Shown in pieces: positions 1,150 to 43,734 of a stretch of DNA of 64,000 nt. The position numbers were made by a program, and so were the translations under genes. Below the pieces are notes generated by a model. That model was given only the letters and a program-made list of their open reading frames with translations, was not told the DNA's origin and did no database searches. Each line of letters starts with the position of its first letter. Within the stretch, counting starts at the first letter, position 1. This stretch comes from Escherichia phage SelmaRatti: sequence record MZ501103; one strand, written 5' to 3'.

Positions 1150-4100
1150 CTAAAATCCTTTTCACATTATCCAGATCTTTACATACAGCAATAAACTTAT
1201 CATCCTTGTACTTGCTGTGGTCTGGATGCTCTTTATCCATTGCAGCTAACTTCTTATACTCGAAATCTGCATCGAGTAATACACCCTTAACATAACGAGT
1301 ATACTCATCATCATCAATACAAGCGATTGATGGATGCTGCTTCTTCATCTTACCACAAGAGTAGTCACGAGAACCTCCAGCTTCAGAATCAGAATCAATA
1401 CCAATCGGACAACCAGGAATACTGATACCACGGTCTTTCTGAATATTACGAATCAGGATTTCATTGTATTGGTCGATCAAATCCTCACGAACAATAGCAA
1501 CTACGGAGTCGTGAACTAGCATAACAATCTTCATCTCTTGTTCTAGGCCAAGAGAAATGATCTCATTATCTGCATCTACAGCACCTAAAAGGAGACTATC
1601 AGAAGAAGCAGACTGAATGATTGCGTTAAATCCAGAACGGATTTCTTCACCTTGAACACCACGGTCTTCGGAGTGGATATTATGCAGACGACGTTTACGA
1701 CCAAAGTGACTGTAGATAAATCCATGATTCTTGATCTGATCATGGCACTTATCAATCCAACGCTTAAGCTGCGAGAACTGACCGAAGTAAGTTTCAATGT
1801 ACTCTTTAGCATCTGCAACAGTACACTCTACAAACGGTTCGCCTGTCTTAGCAGCCTGCTCCAGAAGAGCTTCGTTAACAGAATGAGCTACTTTAGATGG
1901 GCCAGAACCATACAAAATACCAAAGGTAATTGCTTTAGCTGCTTGACGCAGAGCTGGGAATAGCTTTTTAACATCACGAGGTTCGCATTGGAGCTTAAAT
2001 ACCATGTGTGCGATGTTAGAGTGGAAGTCAGGGTATTTATCAGGTTCATTTCTCATGTTGATAAATACTTGTTGCATATTTCTATCACCAGATAGAACAG
2101 CAGCATAATAAACTTCCGCAGTTGTTAAGTCCCATGCAATTACACGGTATCCAGGTGGTGCAACTACACAACCCTTGATAATAGATTCATCACGAGGTAA
2201 CTGTTGAAGGTTCAGTTTACCAGAAGAACTCAGACGACCAGAGGTAGTCATGTGTTCATGGAAGCCAGTACGAATGCAACCATCAGCATCAATACTCAGT
2301 AGAATCTTCTCAACATAAGTAGAGATCAGCTTAGTCAGCTTACGAATCTCTAGCAGAGTTTTAGCAATTGGATGCTGCGTAGCCAGTTCATTTAGAGCTT
2401 CTGCATCTGTAGAGTCTGCTCCAGTATCCGTCAATTTACCTGTTGGAGTTAAGCCAACATAATCAAACAGAAGAACACGTAGCTGCTTAACAGAGTTAGG
2501 ATTAAACGCTTCATTCTGGTCTTTCTCTAGCTGAACGACTTCTGGATAAGTATACAGTTTCTCACGAGCCTTATTCAGGTTATGGGTTAACTGGTACTGT
2601 GCTTCTTTCAAGCGATCAATAGAAATTGGTACACCACGATCCTCAACACGCTGGAGAAATACACAACCAGGCATTAGAACATCATAATACAGACTACAAA
2701 GTTTTTCATTCTTCTCAATTTTTGGTAAGAAGAAATTGTGCAAACGTATGGTGGCATCTGTATCTTTACAGTTGTGAACTACACCAACTTTAGTTACAAA
2801 GTTATGATTATCTTTTACATCTATGCACCAACTGGTAGAGTAACCTCTTCTAGAAGCTGGAACTATCCAATCCTCAATCCCATACACTTCTGCGTAGTAG
2901 TACTTAGATGTTGAAAAATCCCAAGTTCCTATTCCTACTAAATGCTTGAATCTTTCTGGCACCTTGTAAGCCATAGAGCTATGCATATATGGAGCAATCA
3001 AAGGGAATAGTTCTTCATTATCTAATACAAAGAACTGATTATTTTCTCCATCGTTATGGTAGTGTGCTGTAACGCCTAGATTTTTACACCATTCTATGAA
3101 ATTTTGCTGCTCTTCTCTACAATCAGCAACTGTTCTAGACCAAATGCGTGCATTTCCTTGTGGCAGGGTACCAGCATCTTGATACCAAATAGCTAGTGCT
3201 TTTTCATCTAACCCTTCTAGATTTTTCTTAGTAATTTTTAACTTATACTTTGTAGTATTATCTCGCACCTCTAAGGTAGAGAATAAGTCAGAATACTCAG
3301 AGGTATATGGGAAACTATACGTATATGCTTTTTTATCTCCCTTTGTAGAAACACTAAGAGTTGGTGTTTCTACTTGAGAAGCTGCCTTAAAATCTAGATA
3401 CTCTTTATGCGCTTCTGACTGTGTCAGTTGTAGACCAGCGCCCCATTTATTTCTAGATACCAGAGCACCATCCCCAAATAGGGATGCCATTAATACTTGC
3501 TTACTATCAGATGGTAAAGCAATTTCTTCAGTTTGGATTTTATCCTGTCCTGGAATAATATCTTGTACTTCTATGTATCCATTCTGAGTTAATACCCTAT
3601 GGTCTGGTGTAAATACTGGACCATTAATAGTACCACTAGAGTTTCTTTTCTGAGATTTAACTACTAACTTCTTCCATTTTTTGGATTTATGTTCATTTTT
3701 ATACCATCCAGTAATAGGTTTGTTCTCAAATTGCCCAGTTGATTCGTTGAATGATACTACAGCTTCTGTAGATTTGGTACGAACAAGTTCCCCAATAGTC
3801 TTCCAATTCCCTGAAGCCATCTTAACTTGGGAATCGTGAGTAAGACATGCATAAGGCCACATAATATCAAACGGAATTAAATCATAGGTGAAATCTTCTT
3901 TCTTGATTTTATGTGCTTTGCAGTAATCATCTTTGAACTTATCTAGTTCGAAGTCATAGTCACCCATATCTGTATACTTCATTGCTAGAGATTTCAAGCC
4001 ATGAGTACCACGACGTTCATCTAGAACATAGTGCTGCAACATGGTATCATGGAGCCTGCGTTCTTTATGTGCTTTATCAAAGGTAAGTCCCAGATGGTAC

Positions 4101-36323: not shown

Positions 36324-36766
36324 TGGAAGAGAATATTCTAGATGTTTTGCGTAGGGCTTTGCAGGGATCTAAGGTTGATGGTTCTGATAAAGAAGTAGCT
36401 AAAAGCTACCAGACCATAATCGGAGATCTTCAGCGTGTTGATAAAGACTTCATTACTTCTGAACAGTTTGTATCTTATCTAAAAGCTCAACTGAAAAGCA
36501 TTAATCAGACGAAAGCTAAACTTCACGGTCAAGACCTTGATAATTATAGCTTGCAGTCTGCTCAGTATGAATATATACTGAACAAATGGTTACAGCAGTA
36601 TTTGCCACCTCAGTTATCTGATTCTGAGATTCGCAAATACTTTGCAGAATTAGTTAAGTTGAACCCTGGGATTACAAAAGGTATGCTGATGAAAGCGATT
36701 AAGGAAGAATTTCCTGGGCGTTATGATGGTGGTACTGCTGCTCAGATTGCTGGCGAATTTAATTAA
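36323..36766 (+). CDS. GatB/YqeY-domain protein
   Basis: QQYLPPQLSDSEI and C-terminal G..DGG.A.QIA match the YqeY pattern. Confidence 0.55.
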   Translation: MEENILDVLRRALQGSKVDGSDKEVAKSYQTIIGDLQRVDKDFITSEQFVSYLKAQLKSINQTKAKLHGQDLDNYSLQSAQYEYILNKWLQQYLPPQLSDSEIRKYFAELVKLNPGITKGMLMKAIKEEFPGRYDGGTAAQIAGEFN

Positions 36767-36789
36767 AAATTTACTTGCTAAATGCTTAT

Positions 36790-36818
36790 AAATTCTGTAT
36801 AATATATTCATAAATTAG
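36790..36818 (+). promoter_or_regulatory. sigma70-type early promoter driving the tRNA/ncRNA region
   Basis: TTGCTA-17-TATAAT then cataaattagag. Confidence 0.55.
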
Positions 36819-37455
36819 AGAGTAATTCTTCTCTAATTTATTAAATAGTGGGGTGTGGAAATCACTTATGTAGTAACACTGCCGTCCTAGTATAATTGGT
36901 ATTATCAAGCCGTAACTGGTGGAAGATGTAGGTTCGAATCCTACGGTCGGTAAGAACTGGATAACTGATGCTTTTAACGTAAAAGCTTCCGAGGTTAGTT
37001 GCGCACTGCCTAAACCACGCGGTAGTTGGTTCCAGACTAACCAACCAGTCTGCTGAATAGTTTTATTACGATTTAACTATGTCCAGGCTAAAGAAGAACT
37101 TTAGAAGGTATTTCTAGGGTAGTGAAGTTCTTTCTCCATATCGGAGTAGTTTTTCAGGCTATCCACAAAGTGGGAAATGCTGACATGAGAGATGTCACTA
37201 ATGGTGCACAATAGCACAGGTAATTCGCGATAACTCCTGTTGAGTAGCAGCAAAAGGCGGGAAGTCATGACCCCAAGCCTAACCGAGTCCTCAATATACC
37301 GCAGGACATAACCACTAAGTCACCCTGACTTAAACTGGAAAATAATAGACGTTACCGTATTTTGTCTTGAAATACTTAATGAGTGAGACTTATGACTCTC
37401 CCGGTATCGTCTGTATTTTTAAGAGTTTTTACGAGAGTTCTTAAAAATACTTAAA

Positions 37456-37530
37456 CGGGGTGTAGTCTAAGGGAGAGGCAGGAGTCTTCTAAATTCCTTT
37501 ATGCAGGTTCGAATCCTGTCACCTCGGCCA
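37456..37530 (+). tRNA. tRNA-Arg (anticodon TCT)
   Basis: Hand-folded cloverleaf: acceptor cggggtg/cacctcg, anticodon loop cttctaa, T-arm gcagg-ttcgaat-cctgt, encoded CCA. Confidence 0.7.
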
Positions 37531-37564
37531 ATTTTATTAACTGTAACTAAAACAAAGGAAATAT

Positions 37565-38512
37565 ATGTTTAATACTAAAAATATGAAAGAACTAACTTCT
37601 GAGCAGAAAGTAATTCGTACTATTAAACGTTGGGGGATTGGTGCTGTAGTTGGTTTAGCAGGTTTAATCCTAGCTTTTAATTCATATACTATTGTTTCTG
37701 ATGGTACGGTTAAAACTCAAACATTCCTGGGTAAAGTAGACCCTAATCCAGTATTACCTGGTTTCCATATTGTAAACCCGTTTGCATCTTTCGATACTTT
37801 CAGTACAAAAGATATTGCTGTAAAATTAGATAAACTTCAGGTTCCTAGTCAGGATAAGTTTAAATCCACTGTTGACCTGACTGTTATGTTACAATTTGAT
37901 GGTTCTAAGGCACCGATCAACCGTATTAATGCAGGTACTCAGGATCAGGCTCTAGATAAGTACGTAACTGAAAAATTACTGTCCACTATTCGTGAGTTCG
38001 GTAAGTCTGTACCTAAAGCACAAGATTTATTTGATGCTAAAATTCAGGCTCAATTGCAAACTGCAATTCAACAGGAAGTTGAAGAGTATGCACGCCCATA
38101 TGGTTACACAGTTAAGCAGGTATTCCTTCAGGATATTACTTTGCCACCGGTAATCATGGAACAGGTACAGAATACCAAAGTTCGTGAAGAACAGGTTAAT
38201 GCTGCTAAAGCTGAATTAGCTCGTGTTGAACAGGAAGCACAGCAAAAAGTTAAACAAGCAGAAGCAGATCGTGAAGCTCGCAACAACCAAGCTATCGCTA
38301 ATGAACGTGACGCAGATGCTAAACTGTACGCAGCTAAGAAAGAAGCTGAAGCTAACGCCGCACTGCAACGTACCATTACTCCTGAGATGATTCGTTGGAA
38401 ACAACTGGAAGTTGAGATGATTCGTGCTCAGAAATATCAAGGTGGTGTGCCGCAGACTGTGGTTGGCACTGGTTACGATGGCCAGATGATTATGGATATG
38501 CGTAATAAGTAA
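37565..38512 (+). CDS. SPFH/band-7 membrane protein
   Basis: N-terminal TM helix, band-7-like core, C-terminal coiled coil. Confidence 0.55.
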   Translation: MFNTKNMKELTSEQKVIRTIKRWGIGAVVGLAGLILAFNSYTIVSDGTVKTQTFLGKVDPNPVLPGFHIVNPFASFDTFSTKDIAVKLDKLQVPSQDKFKSTVDLTVMLQFDGSKAPINRINAGTQDQALDKYVTEKLLSTIREFGKSVPKAQDLFDAKIQAQLQTAIQQEVEEYARPYGYTVKQVFLQDITLPPVIMEQVQNTKVREEQVNAAKAELARVEQEAQQKVKQAEADREARNNQAIANERDADAKLYAAKKEAEANAALQRTITPEMIRWKQLEVEMIRAQKYQGGVPQTVVGTGYDGQMIMDMRNK

Positions 38513-38588
38513 TATCCACGCGTAATATTCGAAGTAAGCCCTGTGTTTCCTGGAGAGCGCAGGCAATTAAATGAATTTATATAAAATT

Positions 38589-38621
38589 TTGCTTGTTTTT
38601 GCGCGTAAAATTTTATATAAT
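38589..38621 (+). promoter_or_regulatory. sigma70-type early promoter
   Basis: TTGCTT then TATATAAT; exact -10 register ambiguous. Confidence 0.45.
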
Positions 38622-38651
38622 ATTTACTCAAATTTGGAAGAATACGTTAAC

Positions 38652-39023
38652 ATGAATACTAATAAGAAAGGAAATATAGGGCTAGGAAGTGCGATTGCTC
38701 ACTTTACTAGTAAAGGTTTGATTGTTTCACTACCTTTAAATGACAGTCAAGATTACGATCTAATCGTAGATATGGGGGGTACTCTAAATAAAGTTCAGGT
38801 GAAATATACCTCCCAAAAGGCACCCTCTGGTAGTTATATTCTAGCTATGAGAAGTACAAGTGGCACTTCTAGAGTAGCGTATAAGACTCTTAATGAAACT
38901 AATATTGATTTAGTGTTTGTGTATACTGATCAGTATCAGTTGTTAATTCCAATTAAGAAATTAACTAATAAAAATCAAACTACCCTTACTAAAGAATTAG
39001 TACAAGAATTCCGAGTTATATAA
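38652..39023 (+). CDS. hypothetical protein, possible PD-(D/E)xK nuclease fold
   Basis: ATG 38652 chosen because the longer ORF starts inside the promoter; DYDLIVD...KVQVK motif. Confidence 0.4.
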   Translation: MNTNKKGNIGLGSAIAHFTSKGLIVSLPLNDSQDYDLIVDMGGTLNKVQVKYTSQKAPSGSYILAMRSTSGTSRVAYKTLNETNIDLVFVYTDQYQLLIPIKKLTNKNQTTLTKELVQEFRVI

Positions 39024-39025
39024 AA

Positions 39026-39115
39026 GGAAGAATACGTTAAAAGGTAAACGAGCTGATTGCTAATCAGTAGCTCTGAAATATAGCCTTGTGGGTTCGATTC
39101 CCACTTCTTCCGCCA
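39026..39115 (+). tRNA. tRNA-Ser (anticodon GCT), type II
   Basis: Acceptor ggaagaa/ttcttcc, anticodon loop ttgctaa, long variable arm, T-arm gtggg-ttcgatt-cccac, encoded CCA. Confidence 0.7.
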
Positions 39116-39121
39116 AACATA

Positions 39122-39196
39122 GGGTCGGTAGCTTAAAGTTAAAGCGGTGGCCTCATAAGCTAACGAGTAGGAGTTAGATTCTCCTCCGACCCACCA
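39122..39196 (+). tRNA. tRNA with anticodon CAT (Met or Ile2)
   Basis: Acceptor gggtcgg/ccgaccc perfect, anticodon loop ctcataa, T-arm aggag-ttagatt-ctcct, encoded CCA. Confidence 0.6.
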
Positions 39197-39211
39197 AATT
39201 AAGGAAATAAG

Positions 39212-39379
39212 ATGTATAGACATCCACCTCCGCCAACACGTCGTTCTAGAGAAGTTATCCTCATGGAATTGACTAAAAACTTCAAGGCAACTCTTGAAGA
39301 TAGAGATTTAGGCACAGATGAAGATGTTGATTTCATCTGTAAACTATTAAAAATGAAACTGGAGAAACAACATGGCTAA
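39212..39379 (+). CDS. small hypothetical protein (55 aa)
   Basis: RBS aagga; stop overlaps next ORF start. Confidence 0.3.
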   Translation: MYRHPPPPTRRSREVILMELTKNFKATLEDRDLGTDEDVDFICKLLKMKLEKQHG

Positions 39380-39578
39380 TCCTGAAATTACCGCACAACG
39401 TTTCATGCTTAAAGGCATGATTGCTGAGGCAGGTATGACTCAAGAAGTTGTAGATTTTCAAAAGCAATTCCTCAATATTCTCACTCAAGCCAAAGAGCTA
39501 GGAGAGAAAGAACATGGAGCAGCAATTATGGCTATATCTCTTATTAGTCTAGACTTGGCTGAAGAATCAGGAGTTTAA
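39372..39578 (+). CDS. hypothetical protein (68 aa)
   Basis: ORF. Confidence 0.4.
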   Translation: MANPEITAQRFMLKGMIAEAGMTQEVVDFQKQFLNILTQAKELGEKEHGAAIMAISLISLDLAEESGV

Positions 39579-39608
39579 CTCCTCCAAGCAGAAATTTTAA
39601 AAATGTAC

Positions 39609-39638
39609 TTGCCTTTTGCTTTAAATTTCTGATATAAT
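39609..39638 (+). promoter_or_regulatory. sigma70-type early promoter
   Basis: TTGCCT-18-TATAAT. Confidence 0.5.
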
Positions 39639-39649
39639 AGTTATATAAA

Positions 39650-39943
39650 TTGATGAGAGGAATCAGAATGTCAAAACGTGTTACAGCAACTGGTATTGAA
39701 AGTGTAATCTGCAAATCCTGGGAAGACAGGGAAGGTGAGATTGAATGGCTTTATTTCTATGATGTAGAACTTCTACCGGAAGTTAAAGCTAAATGTATTG
39801 AAGCTGGTATGGCTCCTGATGCTACTGCTGATGTTGAGATTATCATGAATAAGCTAGAGGGTCTGGTAATCACTGTTAGTGATGAGGGCGAAGAAGTCTT
39901 CGAACTTCCGTTCTCCTTAACTGTCACTCCTAAGTTCGACTAA
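39650..39943 (+). CDS. hypothetical protein (97 aa)
   Basis: Promoter 39609-39638, RBS gagagg. Confidence 0.45.
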   Translation: MMRGIRMSKRVTATGIESVICKSWEDREGEIEWLYFYDVELLPEVKAKCIEAGMAPDATADVEIIMNKLEGLVITVSDEGEEVFELPFSLTVTPKFD

Positions 39944-39979
39944 CTAATACAGCACTGAGCAAGTTCTTCAAAATTTTAC

Positions 39980-40008
39980 TTGCTCAGTGCCATAAAACTT
40001 GATATAAT
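39980..40008 (+). promoter_or_regulatory. sigma70-type early promoter upstream of tRNA-Tyr
   Basis: TTGCTC-17-TATAAT; -35 lies inside an 11-bp inverted repeat. Confidence 0.5.
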
Positions 40009-40071
40009 AGTTATCTAATTTGGAAACATATTTAAAAGTGTTTAAACTAGTATTTGAATACTTTTAAATGT

Positions 40072-40155
40072 GCATCGTTGGCAGAATGGCTATTGCAGCG
40101 GTCTGTAAATCCGTGCCCTTCGGGGTTGGTGGTTCAAATCCATCACGATGCACCA
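40072..40155 (+). tRNA. tRNA-Tyr (anticodon GTA), long variable arm
   Basis: Acceptor gcatcgt/acgatgc perfect, anticodon loop ctgtaaa, variable hairpin gccc-ttcg-gggt, encoded CCA. Confidence 0.7.
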
Positions 40156-40172
40156 AATTAAAGGAGCTGCTG

Positions 40173-40445
40173 ATGCATCCTGAAAACTTCTTTATTTACT
40201 GCGAGGATAAGTAGCTGAAACGTAGAATTAACAAAGTCTATCATTATCGTGCTAGTCAACAGCCTTATATATACGCTTTTGACGGTGATCACATTCCACT
40301 AGAACAATTATCCTGTGATTACATGATATTGAAGAACTTTGACGAGACAAAGATCTCAAGCGTTCATAATCGACAGAATCCATTAACGTGGAAATATAAG
40401 AAGAAAAAGAAAGGCATCAAATTCTTAAAAAATGTAGTTGCTTAG
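40173..40445 (+). pseudogene. ORF with strong RBS interrupted by in-frame TAG at codon 14 (40212-40214); pseudogene or amber read-through
   Basis: aaggag then ATG 40173; 13 codons, TAG, then 76 further sense codons in frame. Confidence 0.3.
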
Positions 40446-40466
40446 TTTCCAAAAGTTCTGTATAAT
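40438..40466 (+). promoter_or_regulatory. sigma70-type early promoter upstream of tRNA-Cys
   Basis: TTGCTT-17-TATAAT then cataaattgaa. Confidence 0.55.
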
Positions 40467-40514
40467 AATTACATAAATTGAACTGGAGAAGCAACATGAC
40501 AGAACAAGGTAAAT

Positions 40515-40587
40515 CGACCGTTGGCTGAATTGCTTAGGTGAAGGATTGCAAATCCTTTTTATGTGAGTTCAAATCTCATGCGGTCGT
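40515..40587 (+). tRNA. tRNA-Cys (anticodon GCA)
   Basis: Acceptor cgaccgt/gcggtcg (one G-U), anticodon arm aagga-ttgcaaa-tcctt perfect, T-arm gtgag-ttcaaat-ctcat. Confidence 0.65.
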
Positions 40588-40596
40588 CTAAATTTT

Positions 40597-40680
40597 AGGG
40601 TCGTTAGCCAAGTGGTTTGGCGGCGGATTGTTAATCCGTGTCGAAAGACAACGTAGGTTCGATTCCTGCACCCGCTGCCA
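40597..40680 (+). tRNA. tRNA-like gene, candidate Asn (GTT); acceptor stem imperfect
   Basis: D-arm, anticodon arm gcgga-ttgttaa-tccgt, T-arm and CCA fold well, but acceptor pairs only 4/7 and an extra gtc-gaaa-gac hairpin sits in the variable region. Confidence 0.35.
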
Positions 40681-40700
40681 TCTTAATAGAGGATTTCGAA

Positions 40701-40865
40701 ATGAAAGTATTTCGATTAGTAGTAAGTGATCGACGTTCTAGCAAAGATCGTTCGAAGTATACCTTAGCCCACTATGGTAAAGATGAAAAAGAAGTAATGG
40801 TGGAGTTTGGGATTAATCATCGCTACTTAGAAGTTTACTCTATTAAGGAAGTTTATCCGTATTAA
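40701..40865 (+). CDS. small hypothetical protein (54 aa)
   Basis: RBS agagga then ATG 40701; the longer ORF would start inside the preceding tRNA. Confidence 0.35.
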   Translation: MKVFRLVVSDRRSSKDRSKYTLAHYGKDEKEVMVEFGINHRYLEVYSIKEVYPY

Positions 40866-40943
40866 GGGTCGTTAGCTCAATTGGTTAGTAGCACTTGCCT
40901 TTTAAGCAATAGGTTGAAGGTTCGAGTCCTTCACTACCCACCA
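40866..40943 (+). tRNA. tRNA-Lys (anticodon TTT)
   Basis: Acceptor gggtcgt/actaccc (one mismatch), anticodon loop cttttaa, T-arm gaagg-ttcgagt-ccttc, encoded CCA. Confidence 0.6.
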
Positions 40944-40950
40944 AATTTTT

Positions 40951-41024
40951 GCTCGGTTAGTTTAATGGGAGAACCCCGTCTTTACACGGCGGTTGCGATA
41001 GTTCGATTCTATCACCGAGTACCA
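40951..41024 (+). tRNA. tRNA-Val (anticodon TAC)
   Basis: Acceptor gctcggt/accgagt, D-arm gttt/gaac, anticodon arm ccgtc-tttacac-ggcgg, T-arm gatag-ttcgatt-ctatc, encoded CCA. Confidence 0.75.
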
Positions 41025-41043
41025 ATTAACTCAAAATAAGGAA

Positions 41044-41409
41044 TTGCAAATGCAATTATCAAGCAAGATTCAAGGTTATTTCGGTCATGTGACAATGGAG
41101 TTCGCTATCTCTAAAGGTTGGGATTTCGAGCAAGATCTAGCTGAGTTCTACAAAGATATTGATCTGAACGTACCGTATATGGGACTTTCTACTGGTCAGG
41201 AGATCACAGAAGCCGATGTATTCAAGGCAAGTCAAGGTGAGATAACACCTAGTTTTGCCACTTTTTGGAGTGGCTTCACAATTAAAGAAGAAGCTCCAGA
41301 TGATGATGTATTTATGCAAAGCATGCACTCTGGGAGTTCTGATATGTTATTTGTTAAAGATGTACGACATATCCAAGAAGTGGTAAAAACGTATTTGCAA
41401 AATGCTTAA
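41044..41409 (+). CDS. hypothetical protein (121 aa)
   Basis: ORF with RBS aaggaa. Confidence 0.45.
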   Translation: MQMQLSSKIQGYFGHVTMEFAISKGWDFEQDLAEFYKDIDLNVPYMGLSTGQEITEADVFKASQGEITPSFATFWSGFTIKEEAPDDDVFMQSMHSGSSDMLFVKDVRHIQEVVKTYLQNA

Positions 41410-41423
41410 TTTCTTGTTATAAT
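41395..41423 (+). promoter_or_regulatory. sigma70-type early promoter driving unannotated RNA region
   Basis: TTGCAA-17-TATAAT then tataaattgatg. Confidence 0.5.
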
Positions 41424-41756
41424 ATTTATATAAATTGATGCGAAAATAGCTGCCTAGATACCAGGTGTATGACGTCTACACTAGCAGAGCTACCGAAAAA
41501 GAGATCCTCAGGATAAACGTCGTAGCAAAATTAGTCTGGTATCCATCAATTTAGTTCACTAAGGTATTAGCTCGACCTAGGACTGGCTGCCAAAAAGCAC
41601 GACCCCTACGACTCGGGAGAAGTTCTAGATTAGTCCACTAGATTCAGCGGCAACTGAATAGTGTATCGGGTTTGTGAAGAGCGGCTATCCTCTACTGGCT
41701 AATGTATGAGGTTAGTACGCACACCGAGCTAATAGCCTTAGTAAACTAAAGAATTT

Positions 41757-41831
41757 GGGCGAATAGTGTCAGCGGGAGCACACCAGACTTGCAATCTGGG
41801 AGGGAGGGTTCGAGCCACTCTTTGTCCACCA
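41757..41831 (+). tRNA. tRNA-Ala (anticodon TGC)
   Basis: Acceptor gggcgaa/tttgtcc (G-U pairs incl. G3-U70), anticodon arm ccaga-cttgcaa-tctgg perfect, T-loop ttcgagc, encoded CCA. Confidence 0.6.
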
Positions 41832-41955
41832 AATTAAAAAGAATGCGCGCGATTGACGGAATAGGTATACGTGTAAGCCTTAGAAGTTGAATTTTGAGGG
41901 TTCGAATCCCATCGAGGCGTAACTGCCTGGTGTGATAGAGGCATCATCTTATTAT

Positions 41956-42046
41956 TGGAAGAGCAAATCGAATTGGCGACGAAAACCGCTGGGAAAGTGG
42001 CTGACTGGTAAAACGGCTTGAGAGTTCAAATCTCTCCTCTTCCGCC
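41956..42046 (+). tRNA. type II tRNA-like gene (Leu/Ser class?), anticodon arm not resolved
   Basis: Perfect acceptor ggaagag/ctcttcc, T-arm gagag-ttcaaat-ctctc, CCA, D-loop gaattggcgac; no canonical anticodon stem found by hand. Confidence 0.35.
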
Positions 42047-42059
42047 AAACAATTTATAA

Positions 42060-42154
42060 GGTAGGTCAATCCAACGGCTGGCGATGGACTCCGACTTGAA
42101 ATCGGTTGATCGTAGTGATACGGTGTAAGGGTTCGATCCCCTTACCTACCTCCA
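42060..42154 (+). tRNA. tRNA-Ser (anticodon TGA), type II
   Basis: Acceptor ggtaggt/acctacc perfect, anticodon loop cttgaaa, variable hairpin cgta-gtga-tacg, T-arm aaggg-ttcgatc-ccctt, CCA. Confidence 0.65.
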
Positions 42155-42628
42155 AATCTTGAAGTATGCCGGAATCGGTAGACGGGGCTTCCTAAAGGGC
42201 GTAAGGGGAACATCCACTCCTCATAAGATACCCGAAAACGAGGCTGAGATAAATGGTCTATCTCGTGAAGGTTCAAGTCCTTCTGCTTCTTGATACCTCT
42301 ATGGCTCAAAGTGTAACGGTGCTATTTGATGCTCTTAGTAAGACTTTCCCGACATGCGTTCGGGGGTAAGCTGCTAAGACTAGAGTAGAAGAGTTTCGGA
42401 GAGCCGCCACAATTGAAAATTCGTACTCGTCTTGAGCTGCGTGCAATAGGAGATAACTTGATTAGTATTCTAGAACATGCTAATTGAGGAAGGTTTCTCT
42501 AACCCTGCGAGTTTTCAATTGTGGCTATATCATAATTGGTTAATGATCCTGATTGTGAATCAGGCCTTCCAAGCCTCGCTGAGTAGGGTTCGATTCCCTC
42601 TAGCAGCTCCAACTTTAAGGAAACATTT

Positions 42629-42850
42629 ATGCACGTTTTTGAGTTTAGTGATAAAAGTAACAATAAACGAGTTATTGTTATTGGAGAAACATACCGAGCT
42701 TATGAACAAACTGACGGCTCTGTTATCTTGAATGATGAGAAAGCTGGTTTCAGTTTCTATCCTGACGAACCTTATGAAGAGTTTCGTACTAAGTTTCTTT
42801 TACCAGACTGGCTAGCAGTAGCCGAGCAACGAGAATCCAAAGATGGCTGA
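42629..42850 (+). CDS. hypothetical protein (73 aa)
   Basis: RBS aaggaaa; first ORF after tRNA cluster. Confidence 0.45.
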   Translation: MHVFEFSDKSNNKRVIVIGETYRAYEQTDGSVILNDEKAGFSFYPDEPYEEFRTKFLLPDWLAVAEQRESKDG

Positions 42851-43365
42851 TAATCTAAAATTAAGGTTGACAAACAAAAGAAATACGTTGAGGTTGAATT
42901 AGGCGAATAACGCTTAAAGCTAACTTTCGAGTTTCTTCAGCAGTTGGCTATGACAGTTATGACTGATAAGTCTCCTGTTATTGAAAAAGAAATCCCGTTG
43001 AAATAATGGGATCATCGCTCTTAAAGCATTGCCGGAGATGCAACGGTCTTGTAAACCGTGGAACGGGCGTGACAGCAGGAAGTAGACTGCAACTCCATGC
43101 TATCCAGGAGTATAAATGTAGAAGCTAAGACTTTAGATAGCCATTGTCTTAGCGTGAGCAATCACGTAGTTGCAACAGACCAGGGGGATCGCAACGTTAA
43201 AATCAAAGCTCCTGTACTTATTAAACTTAATGGGACTATCAATCCACAAGCCGGACTACGAGCGATTATCGGGTATTCACTTAATAAGCAAGCCTGCCTT
43301 CCAGTTTTTATCTTGCTTCTGGGTTAACAAAAAGCTGAGCCAAATTCTAACATCAGGGAGATCTA

Positions 43366-43734
43366 ATGAAAGCGTATCAAAACCTTAAATCTGGCGTAAT
43401 TAACATTGTTCATAACAATCAGATCATTCAACTATGTTCTAAAGATGGTGAACTTAAACAGAAAGTTCTAGTCGAAGATCTAGAAGGTATCACACCTCAC
43501 TTTGACCCTGAGGCCTTTCGCATTGTAGATGTGGAAGTGATTCCTCAAATCGAGGGAGGTCAGCACCTAAATGTCAATGTGTTAAGTCGTGATCAGCTTT
43601 TGGATGCACAGAAACATCCTGAAAAATACCCTCAATTAACTATCCGTGTTTCAGGGTATGCTGTACGTTTTAACTCACTGACGCGTGAACAGCAGAACGA
43701 CGTTATTAGTCGTACATTTACTCAGGCGATGTAA
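43366..43734 (+). CDS. autonomous glycyl-radical cofactor (GrcA/YfiD-like)
   Basis: [11 protein letters not shown]...[24 protein letters not shown]...RTF matches the GrcA/PFL glycyl-radical signature. Confidence 0.8.

What the first reader, a model, noticed from the sequence alone, without database searches (positions are those of the whole stretch)
41832..42620. tRNA-cluster segments with T-arm/acceptor signatures but unresolved cloverleafs
T-loops at about 41898 (gagggttcgaatccc), 42270 (gaaggttcaagtccttc) and 42588 (agggttcgattccct, ending ...tagcagctCCA) lack nearby complementary 5' acceptor strands. The last one has a perfect anticodon-like hairpin cctga-ttgtgaa-tcagg (anticodon GTG, His-like), and its 3' acceptor tagcagc is complementary to gctgcta 230 nt upstream (42371). 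These may be tRNAs with insertions, pseudo-tRNAs or tRNA-like ends of larger RNAs.
Basis: seen in the sequence. Interest (0 to 1): 0.55.

Follow-up and report, generated by a model that had tools for sequence, protein, structure and literature searches.

The report
Hybrid pseudo-tRNAs plus known tRNA-like RNA1
In the tRNA cluster of this T5-like phage, two of the three odd T-arm segments are scars of small deletions that fused pieces of neighbouring tRNA genes. The third is the tRNA-like 'RNA1' already annotated in phages T5 and BF23, which has a solid fold but no known function.

Summary
The window is the early tRNA cluster of a T5-like phage (Demerecviridae). The three T-loops are real (motif found 9 times, 0.14 expected), but they are three different things.

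1. 41847-41910 is the 5' two-thirds of tRNA-Leu(TAG). A 79-nt deletion between two GGGTTCGAATCCC repeats fused it to the tail of a neighbouring structured spacer element, so its 3' acceptor strand is gone.

2. 42161-42290 is the homologue of T5/BF23 'RNA1', annotated in GenBank as 'tRNA-like RNA with unknown functions'. Across 25 distinct sequences, 34 base pairs are 97% maintained and 16 show compensatory changes. The fold is a tRNA-Leu-like cloverleaf in which a 48-nt branched arm replaces the anticodon loop. It encodes no CCA and has no Rfam match.

3. 42521-42611 is the 5' half of tRNA-His fused at a 7-nt microhomology (CAGGCCT) to the 3' part of tRNA-Gly(TCC), after about 540 nt were lost.

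Neither junction occurs in 50,697 phage records, IMG/VR or JGI metagenomes.

Verdict: ordinary and mostly already known. RNA1's function remains open.

The parts
41394..41423 (+). Sigma-70 promoter-like site, the counterpart of T5/BF23 promoter P13b. It is the likely start of the transcript that carries everything listed below.
   Evidence: Matches 10 of 12 consensus positions with TG before the -10 hexamer. Promoter P13b is annotated at the homologous place in AY692264 and AJ604530.
41757..41831 (+). Intact tRNA-Ala(TGC), given for context.
   Evidence: ARAGORN; Rfam 43.6 bits.
41847..41910 (+). Truncated tRNA-Leu(TAG). It keeps the 5' acceptor strand GCGCGAT, the D arm, the anticodon arm (anticodon TAG at 41881-41883) and the T arm, and then stops. 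The 3' acceptor strand and CCA are deleted. It also carries a C-to-A change at 41875, found only here, in the anticodon stem.
   Evidence: Identical to the intact TrudiRoth tRNA-Leu (L041 1513-1589) up to the T-loop except at 41875. Rfam matches only model positions 8-63, 22.1 bits.
41898..41910 (+). Crossover repeat GGGTTCGAATCCC of deletion J1. Relatives have two copies 79 nt apart (MSP1 L002 1989-2001 and 2068-2080).
   Evidence: Every high-coverage hit listed among 50,697 phage records is split into 2 pieces that span about 79 extra nt. The junction is absent from IMG/VR.
41911..41956 (+). The 3' 45 nt of a conserved, unannotated structured spacer element. In relatives this element lies between tRNA-Leu and tRNA-Ser(GGA). 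Its 5' 60% is deleted here.
   Evidence: Alignments. The structure of the intact element is supported in relatives.
41957..42047 (+). tRNA-Ser(GGA) with G instead of the near-universal U at position 33 (41991). ARAGORN does not call it.
   Evidence: Homologous genes are called tRNA-Ser(gga) in L001 and L002. All 26 relatives have T at this position. Here Rfam gives only a partial 24.7-bit match.
42060..42154 (+). Intact tRNA-Ser(TGA).
   Evidence: ARAGORN.
42161..42290 (+). Homologue of T5/BF23 RNA1, a tRNA-Leu-like RNA.
- Acceptor helix: 42161-42166 with 42284-42289.
- D stem: 42169-42171 with 42183-42185.
- Anticodon-like stem: 42187-42191 with 42240-42244. This stem encloses a 48-nt insert (42192-42239) made of two stacked helices and an invariant apical loop AACATCCACT (42209-42218).
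- Long variable arm: 42246-42251 with 42259-42264, loop AATGGTC.
- T arm: 42267-42283.
- Discriminator T at 42290, followed by TGA. No CCA is encoded.
   Evidence: AJ604530 annotates the homologous stretch as 'RNA1, tRNA-like RNA with unknown functions', and AY692264 annotates it as RNA1. Found in 492 phage records. Covariation. The covariance model scores it 157.9 bits, and the best other matches are phage tRNA-Leu genes. No Rfam match up to E=10.
42303..42409 (+). Homologue of T5 stable RNA I (107 nt).
   Evidence: Annotation. Alignment. Helix count.
42414..42519 (+). Homologue of T5 stable RNA III (106 nt). It is a three-way junction closed by a terminal stem of about 15 bp. Its 3' end abuts the 5' end of tRNA-His.
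   Evidence: Annotation. Folding gives -32.3 kcal/mol, z = -3.1, with 0 of 200 shuffles folding as well. Alignment.
42521..42611 (+). Hybrid tRNA-His(GTG)/tRNA-Gly(TCC) gene. The His part (42521-42567) supplies the 5' acceptor strand, D arm and anticodon arm. The Gly part (42561-42611) supplies the anticodon loop and 3' side of the anticodon stem, the T arm, the 3' acceptor strand, discriminator T and CCA. It carries a C-to-A change at 42605, found only here.
   Evidence: ARAGORN nt. Rfam gives 40.1 bits with a 16-nt insertion and two non-standard pairs, against 59.9 bits for the intact His of MSP1.
42561..42567 (+). Crossover microhomology CAGGCCT of deletion J2. About 540 nt are lost relative to MSP1 and rokbiter: the tRNA-His 3' half, tRNA-Arg, one ORF, two tRNA-Gln genes and the tRNA-Gly 5' half.
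   Evidence: Every full-coverage hit listed among the phage records is 2 pieces spanning 557-682 nt for a 141-nt query. The junction is absent from IMG/VR and JGI metagenomes.

Best explanation
The stretch is part of the early, + strand tRNA operon of a T5-like phage. The three 'unresolved' T-arm segments have two different origins.

(A) Two are deletion scars found only in this genome. Short identical stretches shared by neighbouring tRNA-type genes served as crossover points.
- A 13-nt T-loop repeat was the crossover for a 79-nt deletion. The result is a tRNA-Leu(TAG) gene without its 3' acceptor strand.
- A 7-nt CAGGCCT match between anticodon stems was the crossover for a deletion of about 540 nt. 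The result is a His-5'/Gly-3' hybrid gene.
- The same genome carries at least two more such scars: an Asn/fMet hybrid at 40598-40674 and a truncated tRNA-Thr at 43017-43063.
- It also carries point changes found only here that would disable tRNAs.
Together these show a tRNA cluster that is being pruned. I infer that the hybrids are non-functional or poorly functional. They are probably still transcribed, and partly processed through their T arms.

(B) The middle segment is the conserved tRNA-like RNA1 of T5/BF23. It derives from tRNA-Leu.
- Its acceptor helix is kept as pairing only, while its sequence is free to change.
- Its D arm, T arm and long variable arm are kept.
- Its anticodon loop is replaced by a 48-nt two-helix arm with an invariant 10-nt apical loop.
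- It encodes no CCA.

Most likely mechanism for RNA1 (inferred). Host RNase P and 3'-processing enzymes excise it from the polycistronic transcript as they would a tRNA. It accumulates as a stable RNA with a tRNA-like shape that cannot decode. It then acts through its invariant loops on a partner that is still unknown.

Shown here: homology, synteny, the junction maps, the covariation-supported fold, and the affinity to tRNA-Leu. Inferred: transcription, processing, stability, loss of function of the hybrids, and any activity of RNA1.
For: Identity of the locus.
- 653 T5-like phage records match the region.
- T5 st0 and BF23 are annotated in the order P13b, RNA2H, Ala, Leu, Ser2, Ser1, ORF, RNA1, RNAI, RNAIII, His..., Gln, Gln, Gly.

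Junctions.
- blastn maps and three-row alignments show the window switching from one parental gene to the other inside GGGTTCGAATCCC and inside CAGGCCT.
- The intact parental arrangement is seen in TrudiRoth, MSP1, rokbiter, T5 and BF23.
- No contiguous match to either junction was listed among 50,697 phage records. Exact junction strings are absent from IMG/VR and JGI metagenomes.
- 12 kb of the window corresponds to about 17 kb in the closest relatives.
- Further hybrids are documented.

Disabling changes found only in this genome.
- U33G in tRNA-Ser(GGA), 0 of 26 relatives.
- A at 42605, 0 of 18 relatives.
- C-to-A at 41875.

RNA1.
- 34 pairs with 97.4% of cells paired, against 42-53% when the partners are slid. 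16 pairs change on both sides. 0 of 500 shuffles reach the observed covariation score.
- RNAalifold recovers six of the seven helices on its own; only the D stem differs.
- The acceptor sequence is entirely different in Klebsiella phages yet still pairs.
- The covariance model's best matches after RNA1 itself are tRNA-Leu(TAG) and tRNA-Leu(TAA) at 35.1, 32.6 and 24.3 bits.
- The normal tRNA genes of the cluster mostly encode CCA; RNA1 does not.

Precedents.
- A 10-nt 'recombination site for st0 deletion mutant' is annotated in T5.
- Viable T5 mutants with deletions in the tRNA region are used in PMC11464382, which cites Glukhov et al. 2018.
[quoted passage not shown] Its content is recalled from my own memory.
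Against: - There are no expression data. Nothing here shows that RNA1 or the hybrids are made, cut by RNase P, stable or uncharged.
- ARAGORN and Rfam both accept the His/Gly hybrid as a tRNA (40.1 bits, above the 29-bit gathering score), so residual function cannot be excluded.
- 'Found only in this genome' rests on three collections. Only the top-ranked rows were inspected.
- RNA1's D stem is invariant, so covariation cannot test it. RNAalifold prefers a different local pairing there.
- Single-sequence folding of RNA1 is no better than shuffled sequence (z = -0.63).
- The covariation comes from related phage lineages, not from many independent events.
Confidence: 0.85

Rival explanations
1. 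The segments are functional tRNA genes interrupted by introns or insertions. The mature tRNAs would arise by splicing or would tolerate the extra sequence.
For: RNA1 has every tRNA arm plus a 48-nt insert exactly where the anticodon loop would be. The His/Gly hybrid passes ARAGORN and the Rfam tRNA threshold.
Against: - Removing RNA1's insert leaves no anticodon loop. Position 33 is not a conserved U (T5 has G there). The insert is too short for a group I intron and gave no Rfam hit of any kind.
- The insert's loops are invariant while its stems covary, which points to a functional arm rather than a spacer.
- RNA1 encodes no CCA, unlike most tRNA genes of the cluster.
- The 'insertion' in the hybrid is simply the tRNA-Gly anticodon loop and 3' stem, left there by a deletion.
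- The Leu fragment has no 3' acceptor strand at all.
Confidence: 0.04
2. One reading: the T arm at 42588 is the tRNA-like 3' end of an RNA of about 240 nt, whose 5' end (gctgcta, 42370) pairs with tagcagc (42601).
For: The two heptamers are perfectly complementary in this window.
Against: - All 18 relatives read TAGCCGC. The A that completes the match occurs only in this genome.
- The upstream heptamer varies on its own (GCTTCTG, GCTACTA) with no matching change downstream.
- The upstream heptamer overlaps the 3' strand of an RNA I hairpin that is kept in relatives (97.6% paired, pair 46-80 compensatory).
- In relatives the two sites are separated by tRNA-His, tRNA-Arg, an ORF and two tRNA-Gln genes.
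- By my own arithmetic, a given 7-mer is expected about 0.02 times in 300 nt, so one match among several T-loops examined is weak evidence.
Confidence: 0.01
3. The junctions are assembly or sequencing artefacts, for example collapse at repeated T-loops, and the real genome has the full parental gene set.
For: Each junction lies in a short repeat. None is seen in any other public sequence.
Against: - The repeats are only 7-13 nt, too short to collapse a modern assembly (inference).
- At least four independent junctions, plus point changes found only here, occur in one 3-kb stretch.
- Natural relatives show comparable deletions of their own, for example TrudiRoth from the end of RNA I to tRNA-Thr.
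- Viable T5 deletion mutants in this region are documented.
Confidence: 0.05
4. The His/Gly hybrid is a working tRNA, a His-decoding tRNA with a long variable region, kept by selection after the deletion.
For: The His 5' strand GTGGCTA pairs with the ancestral Gly 3' strand TAGCCGC at all 7 positions. The hybrid keeps intact D, anticodon and T arms plus CCA, and scores 40.1 bits.
Against: - This genome then acquired C70-to-A, which breaks the 3:70 pair.
- The T stem has a U-C mismatch.
- The discriminator is U, as in tRNA-Gly, not the C73 of T5 tRNA-His. From my own knowledge of E. coli HisRS identity, C73 with G-1 is the main determinant.
- Its minimum-free-energy fold is not a cloverleaf.
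- It scores 20 bits below intact His.
Confidence: 0.08

Closest known systems
RNA1 of phages T5 and BF23 (misc_RNA 'rna1' in GenBank AY692264 and AJ604530)
   Same: - Same position, between the small ORF after tRNA-Ser(TGA) and stable RNA I.
- 82% identical to the T5 and BF23 copies and 99-100% identical to many Epseptimavirus copies.
- Same tRNA-like fold.
   Different: Nothing essential. In this window the small ORF (T5p061 / trn 2.14) is missing, so RNA1 follows tRNA-Ser(TGA) directly. The covariation-supported structure and the tRNA-Leu affinity shown here go beyond the one-line database note.
Hybrid tRNA genes in phage T4 deletion mutants (McClain & Foss 1984, Cell 38:225; citation seen, content recalled from memory)
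   Same: Deletions inside a phage tRNA cluster whose end points lie in homologous stretches of different tRNA genes. Each leaves one hybrid gene.
   Different: A different phage family. The T4 cases were selected in the laboratory, and some of those hybrids were functional. Here the hybrids sit in a genome of unknown history and look impaired.
T5 deletion mutants of the tRNA region (st0, with a 10-nt 'recombination site' annotated in AY692264; the T5 deletion collection of Glukhov et al. 2018, used in PMC11464382)
   Same: The same dispensable region of the same phage family. The deletions are mediated by short direct repeats, and the phages stay viable with fewer tRNAs.
   Different: Those deletions are 3-8 kb and were selected in the laboratory. 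The ones here are 79 nt to about 2 kb, there are several of them, and their end points lie within tRNA genes.
Phage T4 stable RNAs 'species 1 and 2' (rnaC, rnaD) in the T4 tRNA cluster (recalled from memory, not tested)
   Same: Small stable RNAs of unknown function, co-transcribed and co-processed with phage tRNAs.
   Different: No sequence relationship was tested or is expected. They are an analogy only.
Bacterial and phage Y RNA-like tRNA mimics (YrlA, Rfam RF02553) and tmRNA
   Same: RNAs that carry T-arm/acceptor-like modules but do not decode.
   Different: - YrlA: the termini are in the Ro-binding stem, not in the acceptor. There is no Rfam match at RNA1; the only weak YrlA hit (18.4 bits) lies over tRNA-Lys/Val.
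- tmRNA: ARAGORN finds none. RNA1 has a D arm, no tag reading frame and no pseudoknots.

Membership tests
Canonical tRNA (Rfam RF00005; ARAGORN) | Acceptor stem of 7 base pairs formed by the 5' and 3' ends | tested here: not met
   - Leu fragment: 3' strand deleted; Rfam aligns model positions 8-63 only.
- His/Gly hybrid: 6 of 7 pairs, with a G3-A70 mismatch.
- RNA1: 6 pairs plus a U-U at 1:72, supported by covariation.
Canonical tRNA (Rfam RF00005; ARAGORN) | Anticodon arm with a 7-nt loop and U33 | tested here: not met
   - RNA1: the loop is replaced by a 48-nt branched insert and there is no conserved U33.
- The Leu fragment and the His/Gly hybrid do keep normal anticodon loops (TAG, GTG), though the Leu stem has an A-G mismatch found only here.
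- The neighbouring tRNA-Ser(GGA) has G33.
Canonical tRNA (Rfam RF00005; ARAGORN) | Reaches the curated detection threshold | tested here: inconclusive
   - 42521-42608: 40.1 bits against a gathering score of 29, and ARAGORN calls tRNA-His.
- 41854-41912: 22.1 bits, below threshold.
- RNA1: no match even at E up to 10.
Canonical tRNA (Rfam RF00005; ARAGORN) | Encoded 3' CCA, as in most genes of this cluster | tested here: inconclusive
   Present in the hybrid, inherited from tRNA-Gly. Absent after RNA1 (TGCTTC-T-TGA) and after the Leu fragment.
T5/BF23 RNA1 (tRNA-like RNA, GenBank misc_RNA) | Sequence homology to the annotated rna1 of T5 and BF23 | tested here: met
   82% identity over 139 nt to L003 and L004. 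BF23 feature 'rna1: RNA1' lies under the match.
T5/BF23 RNA1 (tRNA-like RNA, GenBank misc_RNA) | Position downstream of tRNA-Ser(TGA) and immediately upstream of RNA I, RNA III and tRNA-His | tested here: met
   Window order is Ser(TGA) 42060-42154, RNA1, RNA I 42303-42409, RNA III 42414-42519, His part from 42521.
T5/BF23 RNA1 (tRNA-like RNA, GenBank misc_RNA) | tRNA-like secondary structure | tested here: met
   7 helices, 34 pairs, 97.4% paired, 16 pairs with compensatory changes. RNAalifold agrees on all helices except the D stem.
T5/BF23 RNA1 (tRNA-like RNA, GenBank misc_RNA) | Exists as a discrete RNA in infected cells | not testable with these tools
   No expression data are available. 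The BF23 record calls RNA I and RNA III 'stable RNA' but calls RNA1 only 'tRNA-like RNA'.
Hybrid tRNA genes formed by deletion | 5' part collinear with one tRNA gene and 3' part with another, switching inside a shared short sequence | tested here: met
   - His to Gly at CAGGCCT.
- Leu to spacer element at GGGTTCGAATCCC.
- Asn to fMet inside the T arm (GTAGGTTCGA).

Hybrid tRNA genes formed by deletion | Relatives carry both parental genes intact, with the intervening DNA | tested here: met
   MSP1, rokbiter, T5, BF23 and TrudiRoth.
Group I intron-containing tRNA | Intron of at least about 200 nt with a P3-P9 core, matching Rfam Intron_gpI | tested here: not met
   No such Rfam match up to E=5-10 anywhere in 36500-43600. 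The RNA1 insert is 48 nt.
tmRNA | tRNA-Ala-like domain plus a tag-peptide reading frame | tested here: not met
   ARAGORN in tRNA+tmRNA mode finds no tmRNA in the window.
YrlA / Y RNA-like tRNA mimic (RF02553) | Match to the family model; termini in a Ro-binding stem with the tRNA-like module distal | tested here: not met
   No match at 42160-42293. The only weak hit (18.4 bits against a gathering score of 69) lies over tRNA-Lys/Val. RNA1's termini are in the acceptor helix.

The most novel reading that the evidence does not exclude
RNA1 is not a relic. It is an active tRNA-Leu mimic. It is kept intact in this heavily pruned cluster and conserved in about 490 Demerecviridae genomes across three subgroups. 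Its loops are invariant while its stems covary, and its acceptor helix has been resequenced but still pairs. On this reading it binds a host factor that recognises tRNA shape or tRNA-Leu, for example a tRNA-targeting defence nuclease, LeuRS or a processing or modification enzyme. It would act as a decoy or inhibitor, which would extend the recently shown anti-defence roles of T5 tRNA-Lys (against PARIS) and tRNA-Tyr (against retron Eco7) to a non-decoding tRNA-like RNA.
Probability: 0.15. Interest if true: 0.7.

Novelty: already known. Interest (0 to 1): 0.25.

Why it matters
For annotation:
- The 91-nt 'tRNA-His' that ARAGORN and Rfam report here should not be counted as a working tRNA.
- The same applies to the Rfam-only hit at 40598-40674, which is an Asn/fMet hybrid.
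- This phage's real tRNA repertoire is smaller than the software suggests.

For biology, the case shows how phage tRNA clusters shrink. Short stretches conserved among tRNA genes (T-loops, stems) act as built-in deletion hotspots and leave hybrid genes behind.

The one item of lasting interest is RNA1, together with RNA I, RNA III and the unannotated spacer element. These are well-conserved structured RNAs of T5-like phages that have no Rfam family and no known function. Other products of the same cluster were recently shown to defeat bacterial defence systems.

Tried and rejected
- Rfam at E up to 5-10 over 36500-43600 and over 41832-42625. Nothing matched RNA1, RNA I or RNA III. The weak snoRNA and plastid-UTR hits are chance matches lying over tRNAs.
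- Single-sequence folding of the three segments. It was uninformative (z from -0.3 to -0.9), which is usual for tRNA-sized RNAs. Only RNA III stood out (z = -3.1).
- A search of the window for targets complementary or identical to the invariant RNA1 loop GAACATCCACTC. It gave 5 hits with up to 2 mismatches against 3.6 expected, so no candidate partner emerged.
- Small ORFs overlapping the segments. Four have no PHROG match. ORF 42477-42731 matches phrog_28521 only over residues 1-36, the stretch that overlies the RNA III end and the tRNA-His part (and its first bases beyond the junction). I take that family to consist of spurious ORF calls over these RNA genes, so coding was rejected.
- Literature searches for a description of T5 RNA1 or tRNA-like RNAs. 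No paper held in the library discusses them. Glukhov et al. 2018 is not held.
- The idea that the window's arrangement is ancestral and relatives gained insertions. Rejected, because relatives hold two complete genes where the window holds one hybrid.
- Homing endonucleases as the cause of the deletions. HNH genes do sit at or near the deleted intervals in T5 and MSP1. This is suggestive but was not tested, so it stays a conjecture.
- One helix of the spacer element could not be placed in a single alignment register across lineages. It was left out of the count.
Full report
WHAT THE LOCUS IS

A 2-kb query around the finding matches 653 phage records, almost all T5-like phages of Salmonella, Escherichia and Klebsiella (Demerecviridae), at 84-90% identity for the best-covering matches. 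Two records from the laboratory that mapped the T5 tRNA region give a detailed annotation: T5 st0 (AY692264) and the BF23 tRNA gene region (AJ604530).

In the direction of transcription, which is the window's + strand, the annotated order is:
- promoter P13b
- RNA 2H ('stable RNA with unknown functions')
- tRNA-Ala, tRNA-Leu(TAG)
- an HNH endonuclease gene (in T5 only)
- tRNA-Ser2(GGA), tRNA-Ser1(TGA)
- a small ORF
- RNA1 ('tRNA-like RNA with unknown functions')
- RNA I and RNA III ('stable RNA with unknown functions')
- tRNA-His
- ORFs
- tRNA-Gln (two genes), tRNA-Gly(TCC)
- ORFs
- tRNA-Thr, and further genes.

The window has a promoter-like site at 41394-41423, matching 10 of 12 consensus positions with an extended -10. 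This is where P13b is annotated in the relatives.

CHECK OF THE OBSERVATION

The T-loop consensus GGTTCRANTCC occurs 9 times in the window, all on the + strand, against 0.14 expected. Three of the nine are the reported ones, at 41899, 42270 and 42587. The GTG anticodon hairpin (42548-42564), the 3' end TAGCAGC-T-CCA (42601-42611) and the complementary GCTGCTA (42370-42376) are all present.

ARAGORN finds ten tRNAs. They include tRNA-Ala 41757-41831, tRNA-Ser(TGA) 42060-42154 and a 91-nt 'tRNA-His' at 42521-42611. It finds nothing at the other two T-loops and no tmRNA.

Rfam results:
- 42521-42608: 40.1 bits on the tRNA model.
- 41854-41912: a sub-threshold match that lacks the acceptor (model positions 8-63, 22.1 bits).
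- 42160-42293: no match at all.

So the motifs are real. The statement that no 5' acceptor partner exists is true only for the first segment.

SEGMENT 1 (T-loop at 41898): a truncated tRNA-Leu(TAG)

From 41847 to 41910 the window is identical, apart from one base, to the intact tRNA-Leu of phage TrudiRoth (L041 1513-1589). The match covers the 5' acceptor strand GCGCGAT, the D arm, the anticodon arm with TAG, and the T stem and loop.

After GGGTTCGAATCCC the window does not continue with the 3' acceptor strand (TTGTCGCGC-ACCA). It continues with ATCGAGGCGTAACTGCC.... In relatives that sequence follows a second copy of GGGTTCGAATCCC, 79 nt downstream (MSP1 L002 1989-2001 and 2068-2080). The window therefore carries a 79-nt deletion between two 13-nt direct repeats.

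Every high-coverage hit listed among 50,697 phage records is split into two pieces that span about 79 extra bases. The junction string is absent from IMG/VR. The fragment also has a C-to-A change at 41875, found only in this genome, which opens the anticodon stem.

The second repeat belongs to a spacer element of about 105 nt that no record annotates. It is conserved in 248 records, including Klebsiella Sugarlandviruses (72-74% identity) and Pectobacterium phage DU_PP_V. On 11 distinct sequences from three lineages:
- a closing helix, a T-arm-like hairpin and a third hairpin are 99.4% paired;
- five pairs change on both sides;
- sliding the partners gives only 35-53% pairing.

Only the last 45 nt of this element survive in the window (41911-41956).

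SEGMENT 2 (T-loop at 42270): the known RNA1

The stretch 42155-42300 has homologues in 492 phage records, at 77-100% identity. In BF23 the feature under the match is 'rna1: RNA1, tRNA-like RNA with unknown functions'.

I aligned 25 distinct sequences from Markadamsvirinae, Pectobacterium phage DU_PP_V and Klebsiella Sugarlandviruses. I then tested a cloverleaf read off the alignment.
- Seven helices and 34 pairs, with 97.4% of cells paired. Sliding the partners gives 42-53%.
- 16 pairs change on both sides.
- No shuffle out of 500 reaches the observed covariation score.
- RNAalifold independently recovers every helix except the D stem, which never varies and so cannot be tested.

The acceptor helix is the clearest case. 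It reads GAAGTA/TGCTTC here, GGAATA/TGTTCC in T5, GGAGTA/TACTCC in DU_PP_V, and ATGCCG/CGGGGT in the Klebsiella phages, whose core is otherwise 90-93% identical to the window.

The parts of the fold:
- Acceptor: 42161-42166 with 42284-42289.
- D stem of 3 bp with a loop GAATCGGTAGA, of the tRNA-Leu type.
- An 'anticodon' stem, 42187-42191 with 42240-42244. Instead of a 7-nt loop it encloses 48 nt: two stacked helices separated by A-rich internal loops, topped by an invariant loop AACATCCACT (42209-42218).
- A 6-bp variable arm with an invariant loop.
- A normal T arm.
- Discriminator T followed by TGA. Most true tRNA genes of the cluster encode CCA instead.

A covariance model built from this alignment scores RNA1 at 137-158 bits. 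Its best other matches are the phage tRNA-Leu(TAG) and tRNA-Leu(TAA) genes, at 35.1, 32.6 and 24.3 bits. RNA1 is therefore a tRNA-Leu derivative that has lost its decoding loop.

SEGMENT 3 (T-loop at 42588): a His/Gly hybrid

From 42521 to 42567 the window is identical to tRNA-His of MSP1, rokbiter and T5: the 5' acceptor strand GTGGCTA, the D arm and the anticodon arm. From 42561 onwards it matches tRNA-Gly(TCC) at all but two positions in MSP1 (at all but 42605 in T5). That part comprises the anticodon loop CTTCCAA, the 3' side of the anticodon stem, the T arm, the 3' acceptor strand, discriminator T and CCA, followed by the downstream ORF. The two parents overlap in CAGGCCT.

About 540 nt present in MSP1 and rokbiter are missing. 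They held the tRNA-His 3' half, tRNA-Arg, an ORF, two tRNA-Gln genes and the tRNA-Gly 5' half. In T5, which also has an HNH gene there, about 1 kb is missing.

Every full-coverage hit listed among the phage records is two pieces spanning 557-682 nt for a 141-nt query. The junction string is absent from IMG/VR and from JGI metagenomes.

Rfam aligns the hybrid as a tRNA with a 16-nt insertion in the variable region and two non-standard pairs. It scores 40.1 bits, against 59.9 bits for the intact tRNA-His of MSP1. The discriminator is the U of tRNA-Gly, not the C of T5 tRNA-His. The minimum-free-energy fold is not a cloverleaf.

THE LONG-RANGE PAIRING

All 18 relatives examined read TAGCCGC in the tRNA-Gly 3' strand, which pairs with that gene's own 5' strand GCGGTTA. 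Only the window has TAGCAGC. The complementarity to GCTGCTA therefore exists only because of a substitution found in this genome alone. The same substitution breaks what would have been a G3-C70 pair in the hybrid.

The upstream heptamer lies in the RNA I homologue (42303-42409). It overlaps the 3' strand of a hairpin, CTTAGTA (42334-42340) with TGCTAAG (42372-42378). In 18 sequences that hairpin is 97.6% paired and has one compensatory pair.

The region between RNA1 and the hybrid is accounted for by the RNA I and RNA III homologues. RNA III folds into a three-way junction with a terminal stem of about 15 bp (z = -3.1). No larger RNA ending in a tRNA-like structure is needed.

THE WIDER PATTERN

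Twelve kb of the window corresponds to about 17 kb in its closest relatives, which are about 92% identical. Complete relatives carry 23 tRNA genes in this cluster. The window has about a dozen.

Two more junctions fall inside tRNA genes.
- 40598-40674, reported by Rfam only, is the 5' part of tRNA-Asn(GTT) joined within the T arm to the 3' part of tRNA-fMet. It leaves a broken acceptor stem.
- 43017-43063 is the 5' two-thirds of tRNA-Thr joined to sequence that lies about 0.9 kb downstream in rokbiter.

tRNA-Ser(GGA) has G at position 33, where all 26 relatives have T. This is why ARAGORN misses it.

TrudiRoth has an independent deletion running from the end of RNA I to tRNA-Thr. T5 itself is annotated with a 10-nt 'recombination site for st0 deletion mutant'. 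Viable T5 mutants lacking 3-8 kb of this region are used in PMC11464382, which cites Glukhov et al. 2018. [quoted passage not shown] I saw that citation; its content I recall from memory.

MECHANISM

Shown: the junction maps, the parental genes, the short repeats at the crossovers, the covariation-supported RNA1 fold, and its affinity to tRNA-Leu.

Inferred:
- The whole stretch is transcribed from the P13b-like promoter.
- It is cut by host RNase P and by 3'-processing enzymes.
- The deletions arose by short-homology recombination or slippage between sequence blocks that all tRNA genes share.
- The hybrids are inactive or nearly so.
- RNA1 is excised like a tRNA, cannot decode or probably be charged, and works through its invariant loops on an unknown partner.

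Homing endonuclease genes occupy or adjoin the deleted intervals in T5 and MSP1. Break repair after endonuclease cutting is therefore a possible trigger for the deletions. I did not test this.

COMPARISON AND VERDICT

RNA1 is a member of an already annotated, though functionally uncharacterised, T5-family RNA. The hybrids belong to a known kind of event. Canonical tRNA membership fails for RNA1 and for the Leu fragment, and is only formally met by the His/Gly hybrid. tmRNA, group I intron and YrlA were tested and not met.

The finding is explained and ordinary. The residual interest lies in the unknown function of RNA1 and its neighbours. None of them has an Rfam family, and no paper in the held library discusses them.

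Noticed in passing
window 40598-40674: The Rfam-only 'tRNA' here (41.1 bits, not called by ARAGORN) is another deletion hybrid. The 5' part of tRNA-Asn(GTT) is joined within the T arm (GTAGGTTCGA) to the 3' part of tRNA-fMet. About 2 kb present in complete relatives is missing, and the acceptor stem is broken.
   Followed up: yes
window 43017-43063: The 5' two-thirds of tRNA-Thr(TGT), up to just before the T arm, is joined to sequence that lies about 0.9 kb downstream in rokbiter. tRNA-Ile, a tRNA-Met and ORFs are lost.
   Followed up: partly
window 41957-42047 (base 41991): tRNA-Ser(GGA) carries G at position 33, where all 26 relatives have the near-universal U. ARAGORN therefore misses the gene. 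The BF23 record notes that this tRNA could not be converted into an amber suppressor.
   Followed up: yes
L002 2012-2126 (remnant in window 41911-41956): An unannotated element of about 105 nt lies between tRNA-Leu and tRNA-Ser(GGA) in 248 phage records of three Demerecviridae lineages. It has a closing helix, a T-arm-like hairpin and a third hairpin, supported by 5 compensatory pairs (99.4% paired). It may be an undescribed structured RNA.
   Followed up: partly
window 41430-41750: Homologue of T5 stable RNA 2H, with a long terminal stem (cactaaggtattagctcg ... cgagctaatagccttagt). It is preceded by a hairpin-rich insert of about 120 nt (41430-41545) where T5 has a short hairpin. No Rfam family matches.
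   Followed up: no
L002 (MSP1) 3090-3215: MSP1 keeps the terminal-stem arms of RNA III (ccacaattga ... tcaattgtgg) but has an unrelated interior of similar length, as if a cassette had been swapped.
   Followed up: no
L041 (TrudiRoth) about 3100: TrudiRoth has its own deletion joining the end of RNA I directly to the region upstream of tRNA-Thr. RNA III, tRNA-His, the tRNA-Gln genes and tRNA-Gly are removed. This shows that the block is pruned repeatedly in nature.
   Followed up: no
window 42477-42731: This 84-aa ORF matches phrog_28521 (E = 4.5e-23) only over residues 1-36, the part that overlies the RNA III end and the tRNA-His part (and its first bases beyond the junction). The PHROG is probably built from spurious ORF calls on these RNA genes.
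   Followed up: partly
window 36881-36952 and 40515-40588: A 35.5-bit Rfam-only tRNA hit without encoded CCA at 36881-36952. Separately, tRNA-Cys is followed by CTA instead of CCA. Most other tRNA genes of the cluster encode CCA followed by AAT or ATT.
   Followed up: no
L006, L007, L012 (Klebsiella Sugarlandvirus) 794-927: In Klebsiella phages RNA1 sits in a different neighbourhood, after tRNA-Ile/Met/Val and without RNA I or RNA III. Its core is 90-93% identical to the window, but its acceptor helix has a completely different sequence that still pairs. This suggests the module moves or is conserved as an independent unit.
   Followed up: partly
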